From: Oceanicaulis sp.
GTDB taxonomy: Bacteria; Pseudomonadota; Alphaproteobacteria; Caulobacterales; Maricaulaceae
Reading direction: 5' to 3'
Assembly (NCBI GenBank): GCA_020832735.1
Contig: JAFIEB010000143.1
Coordinates: 26,456-90,455 of the forward strand
Length of the DNA: 64,000 nucleotides
The stretch's first letter is position 1; each line of letters begins with the position of its first letter. Below are positions 893 to 9,284 of the stretch, one piece after another. The notes under the pieces are model-generated. The model ran no database searches and was not told the origin of the DNA. It was given only the letters and a program-made list of their open reading frames with translations. The position numbers and the translations under genes were made by a program.

Positions 893-982
<90 letters not shown>

Positions 983-1045
983 TTTATTGCTTGTTCAAGC
1001 TGCCGCGGCCTTTAAAATCCAAACGAGTTTTTTGGGGGGGGCACG

Positions 1046-2260
1046 ATGATGTTTCGACGACTGGCCGTATGCTTGGTGTTTCTGCTCGCTCCAATGACGG
1101 CGCAGCCACAGGATTCTCCAATTACGGCGCGGCCACAGGATGGAGCAGCACGTGCTGAATGGTTGAGCCAAGCCTGCGAGCGAGGCGATGCGCGCGGCTG
1201 CTTCTTTCTGGGCCTGAACTATGCAGAAGGCCAGGGCGTTCAGGTGGATTATGCCCGCGCCGCCCAGGCATTTCGCCAAGCCTGCGAGCGAGGCGATGCG
1301 CGCGGCTGCGCCTTTCTGGGTAGTATTTATGTGGAGGAGGAGGACTTCACCCGCGCTGCCCAAGTTTTCCATCAAGCTTGCGAGGGCGGGGAAACAGACG
1401 GGTGCATAGTGCTGGGCATGATGCACTCTGCCGGCGCAGGCGTCGGTCAGGACCATGCCCGCGCGGCGCAGCTTATCGGCCAGGCCTGCGAGCGCGGAAA
1501 TGAGGACGGCTGCCAGGAACTTGGCGACATGTATCGTCATGGACAGGGCGTGACGCAGGACCATGTCCGCGCGTCGCAGCTTTACCGCCAGGCCTGCGAG
1601 GGCGGCCATGAAATCAGCTGCGACCGCCTAGGTGACATGCACCATCACGGTATTGGCGTGACGCAAGACTATATCCGCGCGGCGCAGCTTTACCGCCAAG
1701 CCTGCGATAGCGGGCATGCGAGAGGCTGCTTCAAGTTCGCTATGGCATACGAGTACGGCACAGGCGTCCAGCAGAACCTTACCCGCGCAGTGCAGCTTTA
1801 CCGCCAAGCCTGCGAGGGCGGCAACATGAGCGCCTGCCGCACAATCGGCCTCATGTATCGTCATGGACAGAGCGTGACGCAGGACCATGCCCGCGCGGTG
1901 CAGTATCTCCGTCAAGCCTGCGAGGGCCGCGAGTGGATCAGCTGCAGCCATCTCGGTCAGATTTACCAGCGTGACCGGGGCGCGATTCAGGTCCTGGCGG
2001 CCGAGGCTTTCGGCCAAGCCTGCGACGGCCTGAGAGACGCCTGCACCGCTCTCGGCGTCATGTATCGGGACGGCCAGGGTGTCAGGCAGGATAACATCCG
2101 CGCTTATGCCCTGTTCAGCGCCGCCGCATCGCGAGGCGACGATACCGCCCGCTCAAACCTTGACAGTCTGGCCCGCAACATGTCGCCCCAGCAAATCGCA
2201 GAGGCGCAAGCCTTGGGGCGCCGGTGTGCTGAAACGAGCACAGTGGACTGCCTTCGGTAG
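1046..2260 (+). CDS. secreted Sel1-repeat protein, cysteine-paired (Hcp-like) repeats
   Basis: A signal peptide MMFRRLAVCLVFLLAPMTAQ is followed by about ten ~36-aa repeats of the form AAQLYRQACE.G...GC..LG.MY..G.GV.QD..RA. This is the SLR/Sel1 consensus with two Cys per repeat. Near-identical DNA blocks occur inside the gene, for example 1171-1201 and 1279-1309. Confidence 0.9.
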   Translation: MMFRRLAVCLVFLLAPMTAQPQDSPITARPQDGAARAEWLSQACERGDARGCFFLGLNYAEGQGVQVDYARAAQAFRQACERGDARGCAFLGSIYVEEEDFTRAAQVFHQACEGGETDGCIVLGMMHSAGAGVGQDHARAAQLIGQACERGNEDGCQELGDMYRHGQGVTQDHVRASQLYRQACEGGHEISCDRLGDMHHHGIGVTQDYIRAAQLYRQACDSGHARGCFKFAMAYEYGTGVQQNLTRAVQLYRQACEGGNMSACRTIGLMYRHGQSVTQDHARAVQYLRQACEGREWISCSHLGQIYQRDRGAIQVLAAEAFGQACDGLRDACTALGVMYRDGQGVRQDNIRAYALFSAAASRGDDTARSNLDSLARNMSPQQIAEAQALGRRCAETSTVDCLR

Positions 2261-2730
2261 AGACTAGCTTAACTGGCCCCCTGTTTGCCATCAGGGGCGG
2301 CAAGCGTAAGCGACAATGCCCAGCCCTGTTTCAGACAGGGCCGTTCCTGTCTCAGCCGGGCATCATCCTCTTTTCGCCCGAAGTGTGAGGGTTCAGGGGA
2401 CAGGGTGTTCAGCCGTACCCCGGTTTCGCCATCGGCAGAGGCGAAATGGAGCGCGCTTTGCGTCCAGCCGCGCGCATGGCCACCCGCGCCGCGCCGTACG
2501 GCGGCATGGCCATCGGTTTCAGGGCTCTGCTCAAAAACGCCTATGAGGACCGAACTCCTTTTTCGCCCCATCGTGCTTCGTAATGCCTATGGGGGTGGGC
2601 GTAATTTGGAAAGGGTCTTGGAATCCGCTGACGAGTCTTTCAGCTTCAAGGCGCCATCAGAAATGACGGCGCCGACACAGGGCGAAGCCCGGGCGCCAAG
2701 CCCTTTCGGGCTAAAGCCGTGCTTGAAGGG

Positions 2731-2802
<72 letters not shown>

Positions 2803-2917
2803 CCTGCCGTCGATTGCCCTCTTTAGTCCGATGTTGCCGCCAATCGCCGCATCATCACCAGGCGGTATAGTGAACTGCCGATCTTACGCTATACCCCGAT
2901 GTGCACCGGCTCGCCCG

Positions 2918-4150
2918 TCAGTCCGCCGTCGTTTCATAGTCGACAAAGCGTAACAGCACTTCGATGCACAGTGTGTCAGCATCCGCGGCCTTTTTGGCGC
3001 GCTCCATAAGGTAGTAGTCGAACGCCATCATCGATGTGGTTGTCGCGCCTCGCGCAGCTATCATTTCGGCGGCTTGCACGATGCGGAGCAACTCCGAAAT
3101 ATCGAGCAGATGGGCGAACCCGCCGGTCGCGCCCATGAAATCGCGCATGAACTCGATGCCATAGGCGGCGCGGTCTTCGACAAGTTCCAAATCAGGAATG
3201 AGAACGATAGCGTGGGCAGGCTTTTCCCGTTCGACTGACAGCGTATCGCCCTTCGGATTTGTCACCGGGACGCCCGACTTCAGCGCCCGTATGGCACCGC
3301 GCAACTGGGCGAAGGCTTTGCCAATGTGGGCTGAAACATCGCGCTTTAGCTTCGCCCTGTCGGGCAATCGTTCGCGTGTCAAAACCGCAAGCGCCTTGGA
3401 TTCAATCAACACCGCGCCGAACTCGTGGTTTAACAGTATATCGGTCAATTCCCGCGTTCCGTTGCCCTTCGGAATCTGTGGGCTGTGATGGCACCCGGAC
3501 GGATGAAGGTTGTCGGTCAACCAAACGCCAAGTTGCTCTTGCTGGTTGCCTTCGTCATCGTCGAATAGGTGAATGAGGCTGGATGAAGCGCTCGCCGTAA
3601 TGAAATGGCTGTGGACGGCGTTCCAATCGGACTTTCCGCCAACCTCCAAGACCAACCATTCGTCGTTGCTCACACCGAATTGGTGAAGGCGGTCTATCAT
3701 CGGCTCAACGGTCGCCTTCATTGCCGCATGGTCAACCCGGCCAAGCGCCGCACTATCGGCCCACGTTGGTAAGCGATCCAAACCGTCCGATGCAGGTAGA
3801 TTGTTCCAAGCGACGTTCACCGCAAGTTCGTTGAATAGAAATGCCACAAGTGGTTCGCCGCGCGCCAAGCCGCGAATGCCGTTCAATTCTTCTTCGCGCT
3901 CTGCAACCGACCAAAGAATGCCGCCATCGTCGCCGTCGTCACAAACCTTCAAAGCATAAAGCAAGCGCCCGTCACACATGGCGAACGCAAGCTGCATCCG
4001 CGTGCCCAGCGCGATGTATTTCAATAGGACTGTGCTCCCCTTGATAAGAAGGGTTGGTTCAAAACCGTCGCGGCCATGGGCGTAGTCGAAGCGGATTAGC
4101 TGCGGAACTGCCAGAAACTCGGAACGGTTGTGCGACGATAGCATATGCAT
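2918..4150 (-). CDS. hypothetical protein; C-terminal half carries a NERD / PD-(D/E)xK-like nuclease motif
   Basis: A 410-aa ORF sits in visibly lower-G+C DNA. The motif RELTDILLNHEFGAVLIESKAL (D-x13-E-S-K), followed by AHAIVLIPD, resembles the NERD / restriction-endonuclease-like core. I did not recognise the N-terminal ~225 aa as any family. Confidence 0.7.
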   Translation of the reverse strand: MHMLSSHNRSEFLAVPQLIRFDYAHGRDGFEPTLLIKGSTVLLKYIALGTRMQLAFAMCDGRLLYALKVCDDGDDGGILWSVAEREEELNGIRGLARGEPLVAFLFNELAVNVAWNNLPASDGLDRLPTWADSAALGRVDHAAMKATVEPMIDRLHQFGVSNDEWLVLEVGGKSDWNAVHSHFITASASSSLIHLFDDDEGNQQEQLGVWLTDNLHPSGCHHSPQIPKGNGTRELTDILLNHEFGAVLIESKALAVLTRERLPDRAKLKRDVSAHIGKAFAQLRGAIRALKSGVPVTNPKGDTLSVEREKPAHAIVLIPDLELVEDRAAYGIEFMRDFMGATGGFAHLLDISELLRIVQAAEMIAARGATTTSMMAFDYYLMERAKKAADADTLCIEVLLRFVDYETTAD

Positions 4151-4491
4151 CTGCCTATCATGCCCGATCGTAGCGAAAAGCGAATGGCACAGTTATTTGC
4201 TTCTGTTAAACATTGCCGCATCTGGCCTATTTGGGAGGGTCATGGAGGGCTATGGAGTAGACGTAGTTCTCCGTTTCGTCGTTCTCGGCCCGCCAAACGG
4301 CGGCGGGAACCGCCAATTACACGCAATAACCCGATTTATCTTGAAGACCGGGCGCGGCGGCAAGCAACCCCATTGCGGTCATGCATGCATCGCTTCCGGG
4401 ATCCGCTTCGGGCCCTGTACTGTCTTCAGGGTTCAGGGAACAATGGCGAATTGATACCTGACGGCGGCGCAGACCTGACAGTTGAGACCCC

Positions 4492-5025
4492 ATGAGCTCC
4501 AACAGCAACTGGATAGCGCTCCTTCGCGGCGTGAATGTGGGCGGCGGCAACAAAACGCCGATGGCCGAACTGCGCAAACTGTGCGCCGGATTGGGTTGGC
4601 GCGATGTGAAGAGCTACATCGCCAGTGGCAATCTGGTCTTCAGCGCCAATAACACGGCGAATGATCTGTCGAGCAGCCTGCGCGCGGCGATGGCCGAGCA
4701 GATGGGGGTCGATGTCCCCGTTCTCGTTCTGCCCGCCACAGCCGTTTCAAAGGTTCTCAAGGACTGTCCGTTCAACCCTGAAAAGGGAAACCTGTGTCAC
4801 GTTTTTTTCCTTTGGAACGAACCCGTTGTGGATTGGGACGCCTACGCCGCTCACCGCATGCCCGGTGAAGAACTCAAAGTGGATGGCCGGCGCGCATGGC
4901 TGCACACGCCCGAAGGTTTCGGGCAATCCAAGCTGGCTGAGAAACTGCCCAAGGTCATAACCGGAACAGAGATGACAGGGCGTAACCTCAACACCATCCG
5001 CAAACTGGTCGAGATGAGCGCCTGA
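4492..5025 (+). CDS. DUF1697 family protein
   Basis: The N-terminus WIALLRGVNVGGGNKTPMAELRKLCAGLGWRDVKSYIASGNLVF matches the DUF1697 signature (LLRGINVGG..M..L...G...V.TYI.SGN). Confidence 0.9.
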   Translation: MSSNSNWIALLRGVNVGGGNKTPMAELRKLCAGLGWRDVKSYIASGNLVFSANNTANDLSSSLRAAMAEQMGVDVPVLVLPATAVSKVLKDCPFNPEKGNLCHVFFLWNEPVVDWDAYAAHRMPGEELKVDGRRAWLHTPEGFGQSKLAEKLPKVITGTEMTGRNLNTIRKLVEMSA

Positions 5026-5131
5026 CCATACTCTGCTCACGCAGCGAACGTCCGGAAGGCGCGCTCAGCCGGCATTTCGTGGCGATCCATGGAACAACAG
5101 CCCCCGCTATTGCAGCCATTCGCGCCCGGAT

Positions 5132-6502: not shown

Positions 6503-6692
6503 TCTGTCCTCCCCTGACCAAGAGGATAGCACAGTGCGCCTCAAGACATGACGCGAATATGAACGGCCTCGTTTTTGTGGGCCTTGAGCAGGCGGATGAC
6601 GCGCTTCAGGCAACGGCCCGCAAGGCGCCCATCAAGATGGGTATGGCGCTGTCCTGACAAGGCTGGTTGCACTGATCACCGTCCCTGCTGAC

Positions 6693-6802
6693 CTACCCCT
6701 CGTGCCGCGCCTTCAGCACTTTTCCTGCGTCGTTCAGGCTCAGCCCGCGCGCTTTGAGAAGCACCATGAGATGGAAAATCAGATCGGCGGCTTCGCCCAG
6801 CA
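6693..6802 (-). pseudogene. orphan fragment: last ~35 codons plus stop of a hisIE (hisE part) gene
   Basis: Positions 6692-6802 align with 8681-8791 (the 3' end of intact hisIE) at roughly nine matches in ten by hand alignment. The fragment translates in frame as [35 protein letters not shown], against ...[13 protein letters not shown] in the intact gene. Nothing upstream continues the gene. Confidence 0.8.
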
Positions 6803-8545: not shown

Positions 8546-8681
8546 AGTGTGAGATTCCGCGCTTGCCCGTGACGGGCCAACCACTGAGGCTGCCGCACAT
8601 CATGATGTCCGGGTCCCCCGGCGCATCATGGCAGACCGTGATAGGGACATCATTGGCATATAGGCTGGAGTTTGCCACCCC

Positions 8682-9284
8682 CTACCCCTCGTGCCGCGCC
8701 TTCAGGACCTTGGCGGCGTCGTTCAGGCTCAGCCCGCGCGCTTTGAGAAGCACCATGAGGTGGAAGATCAGATCGGCGGCTTCTCCCAGCAGCGCCGCGT
8801 CGCTTTCGCCCACGGCGGCGAGCGCTGTCTCCACGCCCTCCTCGCCGACTTTCTGGGCGATCTTGGCGATGCCGGAGCTCAGGAGCTTGGCGGTGTAGCT
8901 GGCCTCGCCGCCCTCATGCGCGCGCTGATCAATGATCCGGCCGAGCCGGCCCAGAAAAGCGAGACCCGGACCGGGATCATCGCCCCAGCACGTGATGGTC
9001 CCCAGATGGCAGGTCGGCCCGGCGGGCCGGGCCTGGATCAGGATGGCGTCACGGTCGCAGTCGGCGGCCAGCGAGACAAGATGGAGCACATCGCCGCTGG
9101 TTTCGCCCTTGGTCCAGAGGCGGTTTTTTGAGCGCGACCAGAAGGTTACGAGGCACTTCTCTTGTGTGGCAGACAGCGCCTCGGCGTTCATATAGCCCAG
9201 CATCAGCACCGCGCCGGTATCGGCGTCCTGCACGATGGCCGGGGCGAGACCGCCGCCCTTCTCCCAGTCCACATCAAGGTTCAT
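8682..9284 (-). CDS. hisIE: bifunctional phosphoribosyl-AMP cyclohydrolase / phosphoribosyl-ATP diphosphatase
   Basis: The HisI part reads [25 protein letters not shown]...[16 protein letters not shown]...CDRDAILI...GPTCHLG. The HisE part reads SYTAKLL...[12 protein letters not shown]...[13 protein letters not shown]. It overlaps the hisF stop by 4 nt. Confidence 0.95.

What the first reader, a model, noticed from the sequence alone, without database searches (positions are those of the whole stretch)
2918..4150. Lower-G+C orphan gene with a NERD / PD-(D/E)xK-like nuclease core next to the tRNA-Ser att-like scar
The 410-aa ORF begins 116 bp beyond the duplicated tRNA-Ser 3' segment. Its DNA is visibly poorer in G+C than the flanking core genes (judged by eye, not computed).

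The C-terminal half contains D-x13-E-x-K (TDILLNHEFGAVLIESK), followed by a hydrophobic strand AHAIVLIPD. This arrangement resembles NERD and restriction-endonuclease-fold nucleases. The ~225-aa N-terminal region matches nothing I recognise.

A stand-alone nuclease-fold protein with an unknown sensor-like N-domain, at a tRNA integration hotspot, fits the profile of a single-gene anti-phage or anti-plasmid defence candidate. There is no methyltransferase, ATPase or partner gene on either side. The gene is followed by a 340-bp AT-richer spacer.
Basis: partly seen in the sequence, partly recalled or inferred. Interest (0 to 1): 0.6.

Follow-up and report, generated by a model that had tools for sequence, protein, structure and literature searches.

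The report
Mobile single-gene NERD/GapS1-like nuclease
This gene encodes a well-conserved but unnamed DNA/RNA-cutting enzyme with a previously unseen front domain; it hops between distantly related bacteria as a lone gene and lands beside tRNA genes, which makes it a reasonable but untested candidate for a one-protein anti-virus defence.

Summary
The 410-aa ORF is real (window 2918-4150, minus strand). It lies 116 bp from the 74-nt tRNA-Ser 3' duplicate and is G+C-poorer than the core (0.564 vs 0.66).

It is not an orphan. More than 400 full-length homologs exist, and 409 clusters at 50% identity. They occur patchily in Alpha-, Beta- and Gammaproteobacteria. None was found in 60 relatives or in 400 genomes of the class.

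The C-terminal half carries an invariant E205-x31-D237-x12-E250-x-K252 ... Q282 signature on a predicted alpha-beta-beta-beta-alpha-beta core. The spacing is D-x12-ExK, not x13. Pfam NERD scores below threshold in 22 of 71 members. Profile-profile comparison puts the catalytic residues in register with GapS1 (GAPS1), a proven single-protein anti-phage nuclease (P 4e-4; 0 of 40 shuffles come near).

The 195-aa N-domain folds confidently (pLDDT 94). It has no sequence relative and no Foldseek/PDB relative.

Both halves are under purifying selection (dN/dS 0.10-0.18). The gene moves alone with about 50 bp of upstream sequence. It sits next to tRNAs or an integrase in 4 of 8 loci and has no conserved partner. 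No known defence system lies within 7 kb.

Verdict: a new sensor-nuclease variant of the GapS1/NERD kind. A defence role is plausible but unproven. The scan had noted a 412-aa look-alike in another genome (e1-2142103).

The parts
2918..4150 (-). Complete CDS, 410 aa, ATG start. The N-terminus MHxLS is conserved in all homologs.
3566..4150 (-). N-terminal domain, aa 1-195. It is an alpha/beta domain rich in beta-hairpins. Conserved residues are E11, R20, K37, K44, Y65, D71, W80, S81, E88, F106, N107, E108 and W176. No sequence or fold relative was found.
   Evidence: AF2 pLDDT 94.4 when folded alone; Foldseek PDB best E 0.028 with TM <= 0.22; conservation; no longer fused forms; dN/dS 0.07-0.24
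2966..3565 (-). C-terminal PD-(D/E)xK (NERD/GapS1-like) nuclease domain, aa 196-395. Predicted elements are helix 200-213, strands 225-228, 231-234, 238-242 and 245-251, helix 265-291, strand 313-317, helix 332-342 and strand 345-349.
3536..3553 (-). First-helix motif E200-G201-N-Q-Q-E205. G201 and E205 are invariant.
3395..3442 (-). Catalytic D237-x12-E250-S-K252 segment (DILLNHEFGAVLIESK). D237 and K252 are invariant; E250 is kept in 99% of homologs.
3305..3307 (-). Codon for Q282 (99% conserved), in the long helix that follows the ExK strand.
4151..4200 (-). About 50 bp of upstream sequence that travels with the gene in other genomes. It is presumed to carry the gene's own promoter and translation start signals. 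No sigma-70 consensus was found.
4151..4491 (.). Divergent intergenic region between this gene and the DUF1697 gene (4492-5025, plus strand). G+C is 0.563.
2803..2917 (-). 3' flank, partly shared with homolog loci L003 and L006. At 2840-2859 it contains a degenerate copy of a tRNA 3'-end-like sequence. In L003 the matching sequence is an 18/19 repeat of that genome's tRNA-Ser(CGA) 3' end.
2729..2802 (+). 74-nt duplicate of the tRNA-Ser(UGA) 3' part (att-like scar), 116 bp from the gene's stop codon.
893..982 (+). Intact tRNA-Ser(UGA).

Best explanation
The gene encodes a stand-alone, two-domain, metal-dependent phosphodiesterase. The C-terminal domain is a NERD/GapS1-type PD-(D/E)xK nuclease, with catalytic residues E205, D237, E250 and K252 plus Q282. 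It is packed against a 195-aa N-terminal domain of a fold not matched in the PDB.

The gene is accessory cargo. It spreads between distantly related Proteobacteria as a single gene with its own short upstream region. It is found at tRNA- or integrase-linked insertion sites.

Most likely (inferred, not shown), it is a single-protein conflict system of the GapS1/ZwsA kind. In that model the N-domain senses or binds a phage- or mobile-element-derived trigger or nucleic-acid feature. It thereby licenses the nuclease to cut phage or cellular nucleic acid, which stops the infection.

Shown here: the conserved active-site signature, the predicted fold order, purifying selection on both domains, the patchy and mobile distribution, and the absence of a partner gene.

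Inferred: catalytic activity, the substrate, the existence of a trigger, and the anti-phage role.
For: Active site:
- G201, E205, D237 and K252 are invariant. E250 and Q282 are each kept in 99% of 71 homologs at 22-65% identity.
- The spacing E-x31-D-x12-E-x-K equals that of the mutationally validated NERD residues E535/D567/E580/K582 of the stand-alone defence nuclease ZwsA (bioRxiv 10.64898/2026.04.06.716636).

Family signals:
- Pfam NERD is hit by 22 of 71 members, best E 3.9e-5.
- hhalign against a GapS1 alignment built from NF047931 genome hits aligns D237, ESK and Q282 with GapS1's invariant D319 and K334. The whole-length comparison gives P 0.0026. The C-domains alone give probability 34.5% and P 4.2e-4. 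The real score is 33 against a maximum of 18.2 in 40 column shuffles.
- GAPS1 is a single-protein anti-phage PD-(D/E)xK system whose D313 and K328 are essential and which is triggered by a capsid protein (bioRxiv 10.1101/2023.03.28.534373).

Structure:
- AF2 gives pLDDT 94.9 and pTM 0.92, with element order helix, 3-4 strands, helix, strand.
- The weak Foldseek hits are enriched for sensor-nuclease effectors and restriction-fold proteins: Cdn1, Can2, Card1, Cap4 and Bax1 in the PDB, and DUF2726 and restriction endonucleases in BFVD.

Selection: dN/dS is 0.10-0.18 overall and is similar in both halves.

Mobility:
- No match in 60 relatives or in 400 genomes of the class.
- 75-86% identical copies occur in Sphingomonadales, Rhodobacterales, Hyphomicrobiales-type MAGs, Acetobacteraceae and Stenotrophomonas.
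- DNA homology is confined to the ORF plus about 50 bp upstream and 40-110 bp downstream.
- Gene G+C is 0.48-0.56 in hosts of 0.57-0.69.
- A tRNA is adjacent in the window, L003 and L007, and an integrase plus primase-helicase element in L009.
- No neighbour is conserved across the eight loci; only L003 and L006 share a katG-like upstream gene.
Against: - No experiment exists on any member of the family.
- PADLOC has no hit for the protein.
- No recognisable defence system lies within 7 kb in 8 loci. The only PADLOC hits are ABC-ATPase, RmuC and radical-SAM cross-matches.
- In several loci the neighbours are ordinary core genes: katG, rplU, recG, sdhE and nrdDG.
- The window protein is below the Pfam NERD threshold.
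- hhalign against a NERD-UvrD helicase family fails, with probability at most 1%.
- The GapS1 link is weak (probability 11-35%) and covers only the nuclease core. The N-domains are unrelated (P 0.42).
- Foldseek gives no PDB match at E <= 1e-3.
- No matches were found in phage or plasmid records.
Confidence: 0.5

Rival explanations
1. It is a modification-dependent (Type IV-like) or structure-specific restriction nuclease. In this reading the N-terminal domain reads a DNA feature directly, such as a modified base or a branched or damaged structure. The nuclease then cuts foreign DNA without any protein trigger.
For: It is a single gene with no methyltransferase partner. The N-domain is rich in beta-hairpins and has conserved aromatic and charged residues (Y65, W80, F106, N107, E108, W176, K37, K44), which could form a nucleic-acid-binding surface. 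It has a mobile accessory distribution.
Against: Foldseek found no match to SRA, PUA, EVE or other known modified-base readers, nor to MspJI-type enzymes. No Pfam DNA-binding domain was detected. Nothing distinguishes this reading from a protein-triggered mechanism.
Confidence: 0.15
2. It is a selfish or mobility-associated nuclease. The gene would promote its own spread or retention, like a free-standing homing endonuclease or an addiction gene. Alternatively it is a leftover accessory nuclease of a tRNA-Ser-targeting integrative element. In either case it would not protect the host.
For: The unit of transfer is essentially the gene alone, with short flanks. It sits between ordinary core genes in several genomes. 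It carries a tRNA 3'-end-like remnant in its 3' flank in the window, L003 and L006. It lies next to an integrase in L009.
Against: Insertion sites differ between loci and share no target sequence. No terminal repeats were found. There is no cognate immunity or antitoxin ORF. The large conserved N-domain under purifying selection and the similarity to GapS1 fit a sensor-effector better. The gene is rare rather than invasive.
Confidence: 0.12
3. It is a housekeeping DNA repair or recombination nuclease that merely looks foreign.
For: NERD-like and PD-(D/E)xK domains occur in repair proteins. The neighbours in some loci are recG, RmuC-like or katG genes.
Against: It was not found in any of 26 species of the same genus, 34 further relatives or 400 genomes of the class. 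G+C and GC3 are atypical for the host. Near-identical copies occur across proteobacterial classes. There is no conserved synteny.
Confidence: 0.05
4. It is an inactive or decaying remnant with no present function.
For: It sits in a patchwork of scars and remnants: the tRNA-Ser duplicate and the hisIE 3' duplicate. The L009 copy is interrupted by two frameshifts.
Against: The frame is intact. All catalytic residues are kept. dN/dS is 0.10-0.18 against six other copies. The L009 breaks are in a long-read MAG in which the neighbouring integrase is split too, so they may be assembly errors.
Confidence: 0.03

Closest known systems
GAPS1 / GapS1 (NCBIfam NF047931; single-protein anti-phage system of Vibrio parahaemolyticus GMT islands and E. 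coli; bioRxiv 10.1101/2023.03.28.534373)
   Same: Both are single proteins carried on mobile islands, with an N-terminal region of unknown fold followed by a C-terminal PD-(D/E)xK core. Both cores carry G-x3-E ... D-x12-E-S-K ... Q. hhalign puts D237, K252 and Q282 in register with GapS1 D319 and K334 (P 4.2e-4 for the C-domains). The D-to-K spacing of 15 matches the published essential residues D313 and K328.
   Different: The GapS1 HMM does not recognise this family: no hit for the window protein, and 2 of 71 members at E about 0.006 against a cut-off of 320 bits. The N-terminal regions are unrelated. This protein is about 120 aa shorter (410 vs about 530). No phenotype is known.
NERD domain (Pfam PF08378), e.g. 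ZwsA (Zowangsin), a stand-alone NERD RNA endonuclease active against RNA phages (bioRxiv 10.64898/2026.04.06.716636)
   Same: The catalytic tetrad spacing is identical: E-x31-D-x12-E-x-K (E205/D237/E250/K252 here, E535/D567/E580/K582 in ZwsA). NERD is the only recurrent Pfam hit, in 22 of 71 members.
   Different: The window protein scores 12.8 bits, below the 22.1-bit threshold. hhalign to a NERD-UvrD helicase family fails. ZwsA has VHS, DUF647 and S4 domains, which are absent here.
CARF/SAVED-nuclease effectors Card1, Can2, Cdn1 and Cap4
   Same: They have a similar size (370-440 aa) and similar logic: a sensor domain plus a PD-(D/E)xK nuclease in one chain. They are among the best Foldseek PDB hits, although weak (probability 0.2-0.66).
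   Different: The N-domain is built of beta-hairpins, not a Rossmann-like CARF or SAVED fold. There are no CRISPR or CBASS genes nearby. PADLOC gives no hit.
Shedu (SduA, DUF4263) and Upx, single-gene PD-(D/E)xK defence nucleases
   Same: They follow the same concept: one polypeptide in which a variable N-terminal regulatory domain controls a restriction-fold nuclease (Upx: PMC13099982).
   Different: No DUF4263, Shedu or Upx model hits this protein. Upx is 1272 aa with two nuclease domains. The Atlas lead to an Upx-like domain scored 0.81, which is chance level.

Membership tests
PD-(D/E)xK (restriction-endonuclease-like) superfamily | Conserved acidic/lysine catalytic signature D ... (D/E)xK on adjacent beta-strands | tested here: met
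   D237 and K252 are invariant and E250 is kept in 99% of 71 homologs at 22-65% identity. E205 is invariant in the preceding helix.
PD-(D/E)xK (restriction-endonuclease-like) superfamily | alpha-beta-beta-beta-alpha-beta core fold | tested here: inconclusive
NERD (Pfam PF08378) | Match to the family HMM at or above the gathering score (22.1 bits) | tested here: not met
   The window protein scores 12.8 bits, E 0.17, over aa 220-294. 22 of 71 homologs match at E <= 1, with best E 3.9e-5.
NERD (Pfam PF08378) | Catalytic E ... D ... ExK with NERD-type spacing | tested here: met
   E205-x31-D237-x12-E250-x-K252 equals ZwsA E535/D567/E580/K582.
NERD (Pfam PF08378) | Profile-profile similarity to bona fide NERD proteins | tested here: not met
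   hhalign against 30 NERD-UvrD helicase proteins gives probability 0.2-1%, and the motifs are not aligned. GapS1's core aligns weakly with that NERD set (P 0.0017), which gives only an indirect bridge.
GapS1 / GAPS1 (NCBIfam NF047931) | Full-length match to the family HMM (cut-off 320 bits) | tested here: not met
   The window protein has no hit at E <= 1. 2 of 71 homologs hit at E about 0.006. The window's own genome has no match at E <= 1e-5.
GapS1 / GAPS1 (NCBIfam NF047931) | Homologous PD-(D/E)xK core with catalytic residues in register | tested here: inconclusive
   hhalign gives probability 11.5% (P 0.0026) for the whole length and 34.5% (P 4.2e-4) for the C-domains. D, ESK and Q are aligned. 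The best of 40 shuffled controls scores 18.2 against 33.2. The GapS1 profile was built from only 6 sequences.
GapS1 / GAPS1 (NCBIfam NF047931) | Homologous N-terminal (sensor) region | tested here: not met
   hhalign of the N-terminal parts gives P 0.42.
GapS1 / GAPS1 (NCBIfam NF047931) | Anti-phage activity dependent on the nuclease residues | not testable with these tools
   This needs phage challenge of an expressing strain and of D237A and K252A mutants.
Any defence system in PADLOC-DB v2.0.0 | HMM match of the protein, or a partner gene of a known system nearby | tested here: not met
   No family matches the protein at E <= 1. The 131 neighbour ORFs from 8 loci give only generic ABC-ATPase, RmuC, LolE and radical-SAM cross-hits.
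CARF/SAVED-nuclease effectors (Card1/Can2/Cap4) | Rossmann-like CARF or SAVED sensor domain, and association with CRISPR type III or CBASS | tested here: not met
   The N-domain is hairpin-rich and gives no CARF or SAVED hit. No cas or cyclase genes are nearby.

The most novel reading that the evidence does not exclude
The family (409 clusters at 50% identity) is a new single-protein immune system. A structurally novel 195-aa sensor domain, found in no other architecture, would gate a GapS1/NERD-type nuclease. The system would spread as a promoter-bearing one-gene cassette into tRNA-linked sites across proteobacterial classes.
Probability: 0.35. Interest if true: 0.65.

Novelty: new variant of a known kind. 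Interest (0 to 1): 0.45.

Why it matters
Single-protein sensor-nuclease defences such as GapS1, ZwsA, Shedu and Upx are a fast-growing class. How the sensors recognise phage is the open question for them.

This family offers a compact (410 aa), confidently foldable example with a sensor domain that has no known relative. It occurs in culturable hosts such as Stenotrophomonas maltophilia, Sphingobium and Stappia, so it can be tested directly.

It also shows that a nuclease gene can circulate widely as a lone gene outside recognisable defence islands. Guilt-by-association searches would miss such a gene.

If it proves not to be defensive, it would still be an example of a highly mobile stand-alone nuclease of unknown selfish or repair role.

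Tried and rejected
No large neighbourhood survey of the 400+ homologs was therefore possible. Contexts are limited to 8 genome loci and a few metagenome fragments.
- The VIA-align libraries were not available. Only Foldseek was used.
- The PDB sequence-profile search found no hits at E <= 10.
- Foldseek against the PDB found nothing at E <= 1e-3 for the full model or for the N-domain.
- tblastn against phage and plasmid records, and the IMG/VR scan, found no match.
- Atlas: the protein's own clusters are unnamed. The N-domain query gave only chance-level leads (0.81-0.85), including an 'Upx-like' cluster. Upx is a 1272-aa dual nuclease and is unrelated in architecture.
- An alignment of 4 NERD matches taken from genomes was too divergent to use.
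- hhalign against a NERD-UvrD family was negative.
- The mad3, mad8 and AriA PADLOC hits among neighbours are ABC-transporter ATPases, not MADS or PARIS systems.
- No integrase remnant lies near the gene in the window.
- No sigma-70 consensus promoter or terminator was found around the gene.
- No longer proteins carry the N-domain.
- No RNA holder was listed among public runs. The DNA holders are bioreactor metagenomes from one study.
- The tRNA-Ser to GlsB interval in relatives G019 and G021 is 28-41 kb of core-like G+C, not an obvious defence island.
Full report
**Observation**

The ORF is real. It runs 2918-4150 on the minus strand, starts with ATG and encodes 410 aa. ARAGORN places tRNA-Ser(UGA) at 893-982. 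The last 74 nt of that tRNA recur at 2729-2802 with one mismatch. These repeats bracket a 1.8-kb Sel1-repeat islet.

The gene's stop codon, not its start, lies 116 bp from that scar. The 341-bp 'spacer' at 4151-4491 is the gene's upstream region, shared divergently with a DUF1697 gene at 4492-5025.

The computed G+C values are:
- 0.564 for the gene and 0.563 for the spacer;
- 0.653 for the window and 0.661 beyond 9 kb;
- GC3 of 0.66 for the gene against 0.83-0.85 in the his genes.

Both quoted peptides are present. The motif is D237-x12-E250-x-K252, not x13.

**Not an orphan**

The word-indexed search scored 439 homologs. The best 120 are 352-444 aa long and 60-86% identical over the whole length. 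They come from Stappia, Sphingobium, Novosphingobium, Methylocystis, Lichenicoccus, several Rhodobacterales and Stenotrophomonas maltophilia.

The exhaustive search of representatives at 50% identity found 409 clusters (128 at E <= 1e-30). The roughly 400-aa two-domain layout is kept down to 25-30% identity. No longer protein carries the N-terminal domain.

No curated library names the family:
- Pfam gives only a sub-threshold NERD hit (E 0.17, 12.8 bits, cut-off 22.1).
- PADLOC gives nothing.
- NCBIfam gives nothing meaningful.

PHROGs family phrog_30399 has unknown function and a 417-position profile. It is matched colinearly by 34 of 71 members, best E 5.3e-11.

**The nuclease domain**

I aligned 71 diverse homologs at 22-65% identity.
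- Invariant columns: G201, E205, D237, K252, D350 and R384.
- Kept in at least 90%: E200, Q204, R233, E234, E250, S251, Q282 and H313.

AlphaFold2 with this alignment gives a very confident model (pLDDT 94.9, pTM 0.92). It places E205 in helix 200-213, D237 at the start of strand 238-242, E250 and K252 at the end of strand 245-251, and Q282 in the long helix 265-291. Strand 313-317 (AHAIVLIPD) follows. This is the alpha-beta-beta-beta-alpha-beta order of the restriction-endonuclease fold.

Pfam NERD is by far the most frequent hit across the family: 22 of 71 members, best E 3.9e-5. The spacing E-x31-D-x12-E-x-K is identical to the four NERD residues shown by mutation to be needed in the stand-alone defence nuclease ZwsA.

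Foldseek finds no strong PDB match. Its weak hits are enriched for sensor-nuclease effectors (Cdn1, Can2, Card1, Cap4, Bax1). In BFVD they are enriched for DUF2726 and restriction endonucleases, best E 2.3e-4.

A profile-profile test against a bona fide NERD-UvrD helicase family failed, with probability at most 1%.

A weak NCBIfam lead prompted me to collect GapS1 proteins from genomes using NF047931 and to align them. The results were:
- hhalign aligns the present family's D, ESK and Q with GapS1's invariant D319 and K334 (probability 11.5%, P 0.0026).
- With the C-domains only, probability is 34.5% and P is 4.2e-4. The upstream G-x3-E helix is also in register.
- The real score (33) is far above the best of 40 column-shuffled controls (18.2).
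- GapS1's core in turn aligns weakly with the NERD set (P 0.0017).

I conclude that the domain is a PD-(D/E)xK nuclease of the NERD/GapS1 neighbourhood. It is not a member of either curated family.

**The N-terminal domain**

Residues 1-195 fold confidently on their own (pLDDT 94.4). The domain is a helix-plus-hairpin alpha/beta domain with a scattering of conserved charged and aromatic residues.

It has no Pfam or PDB-sequence match. Foldseek finds no PDB match (best E 0.028, TM <= 0.22). It shows no similarity to the GapS1 N-terminal region.

Its dN/dS is as low as that of the nuclease half: 0.07-0.24 against 0.09-0.15. It is therefore functional. With pTM 0.92 it is predicted to pack against the nuclease domain.

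**Mobility and context**

The protein was not found in 26 other species of the genus, 34 further relatives, or 400 genomes sampled across the class. Eight loci were recovered from 185,579 species genomes.

Across those loci no neighbour is conserved, except a katG gene shared by two related MAGs. DNA similarity stops about 50 bp upstream and 40-110 bp downstream of the ORF. The gene keeps a G+C of 0.48-0.56 in hosts of 0.57-0.69. dS between copies is 0.6-1.9.

Four of the eight loci show a tRNA or integrase link:
- The window: the gene's 3' end faces the tRNA-Ser duplicate.
- L003: the gene's 3' end faces an intact tRNA-Ser(CGA). An 18/19 repeat of that tRNA's 3' end lies 45 nt after the stop codon. 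A degenerate copy of the same stretch survives at window 2840-2859 and in L006.
- L007: a tRNA-Arg ends 145 bp upstream of the gene.
- L009: the gene lies next to a tyrosine integrase and a primase-helicase (NrS-1-like/DUF5906) of an integrative element.

In the window's closest complete relatives, the native GlsB-hisIE neighbourhood is kept. However, 28-41 kb of core-like DNA separates it from tRNA-Ser, where the window has 4.1 kb of islet, this gene and DUF1697.

Against the 'defence island' idea, PADLOC finds no genuine defence system among 131 ORFs within 7 kb in the eight loci. Several neighbours are ordinary core genes. No copy was found in phage or plasmid records.

**Interpretation**

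The best-supported reading is a stand-alone, horizontally mobile sensor-nuclease. It has a GapS1/NERD-type catalytic domain controlled by a new N-terminal domain.

A conflict (anti-phage or anti-mobile-element) role is the most likely function. The argument rests on analogy with GapS1 and ZwsA and on the gene's rarity, mobility and tRNA/integrase-linked positions. It is not shown.

The rivals are a direct DNA-feature-reading restriction-type enzyme, a selfish or mobility nuclease, a repair enzyme and a dead gene. The last two are poorly compatible with the distribution and with purifying selection.

**Earlier scan notes**

A first-reader note on another genome describes a 412-aa look-alike in a low-GC patch (e1-2142103), so the scan has met this family before. 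Several follow-ups elsewhere named GAPS1 as the closest known relative of other orphan-looking nucleases. I reached GapS1 independently through NCBIfam and hhalign before reading them.

**Verdict**

The nuclease interpretation is supported. 'Orphan' is wrong, and the defence role remains untested.

The family is a new variant of the single-protein sensor-nuclease kind. I rate it of moderate interest, mainly as a compact and experimentally tractable candidate with a sensor domain of unknown fold.

Noticed in passing
window 2840-2859; L003:11279-11297; L006 about 10-30 nt after the homolog's stop codon: A tRNA 3'-end-like sequence travels in the gene's 3' flank. In L003 it is an 18/19 repeat of that genome's own tRNA-Ser(CGA) 3' end, 185 bp from the intact tRNA. 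In the window only a degenerate copy remains, next to the younger 74-nt tRNA-Ser(UGA) repeat. This suggests serial integrations at tRNA-Ser genes.
   Followed up: partly
L009:5259-11239: In a Devosiaceae long-read MAG the homolog sits beside a tyrosine integrase and an NrS-1-like primase-polymerase/DUF5906 helicase (a satellite-like integrative element) and an IS element. Both the integrase and the homolog are split by frameshifts. These may be assembly errors rather than decay.
   Followed up: partly
window 983-5131, compared with G019:C1:1644700-1672850 and G021:C1:785360-826030: The closest complete relatives have 28-41 kb of core-like G+C DNA between tRNA-Ser and the GlsB/YeaQ gene. This genome has only 4.1 kb there (Sel1 islet, this gene, DUF1697). 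That implies a deletion or rearrangement at this junction.
   Followed up: partly
window 4151-4200: About 50 bp upstream of the ATG is conserved among copies in different genomes. It ends with GCATGATA only 5-6 nt before the start codon. This hints at a very short leader or a leaderless transcript. No sigma-70 consensus was detected.
   Followed up: no
phrog_30399 (PHROGs): A (pro)phage protein family of unknown function with a 417-position profile is matched colinearly (positions about 200-328) by 34 of 71 family members. No phage record in the collections searched carries a close homolog.
   Followed up: partly
window 6692-6802 and 8681-8791: A 111-nt direct repeat (93% identity) of the hisIE 3' end brackets a 1.9-kb insertion that carries a sulfotransferase gene. 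This is a second scar in the same low-GC patch.
   Followed up: no
L003:7719-9881 and L006:6127-8292: Two MAGs of different labelled taxa share a katG gene (78% aa identity), including its terminator, directly upstream of the homolog. This is the only conserved neighbourhood seen.
   Followed up: no
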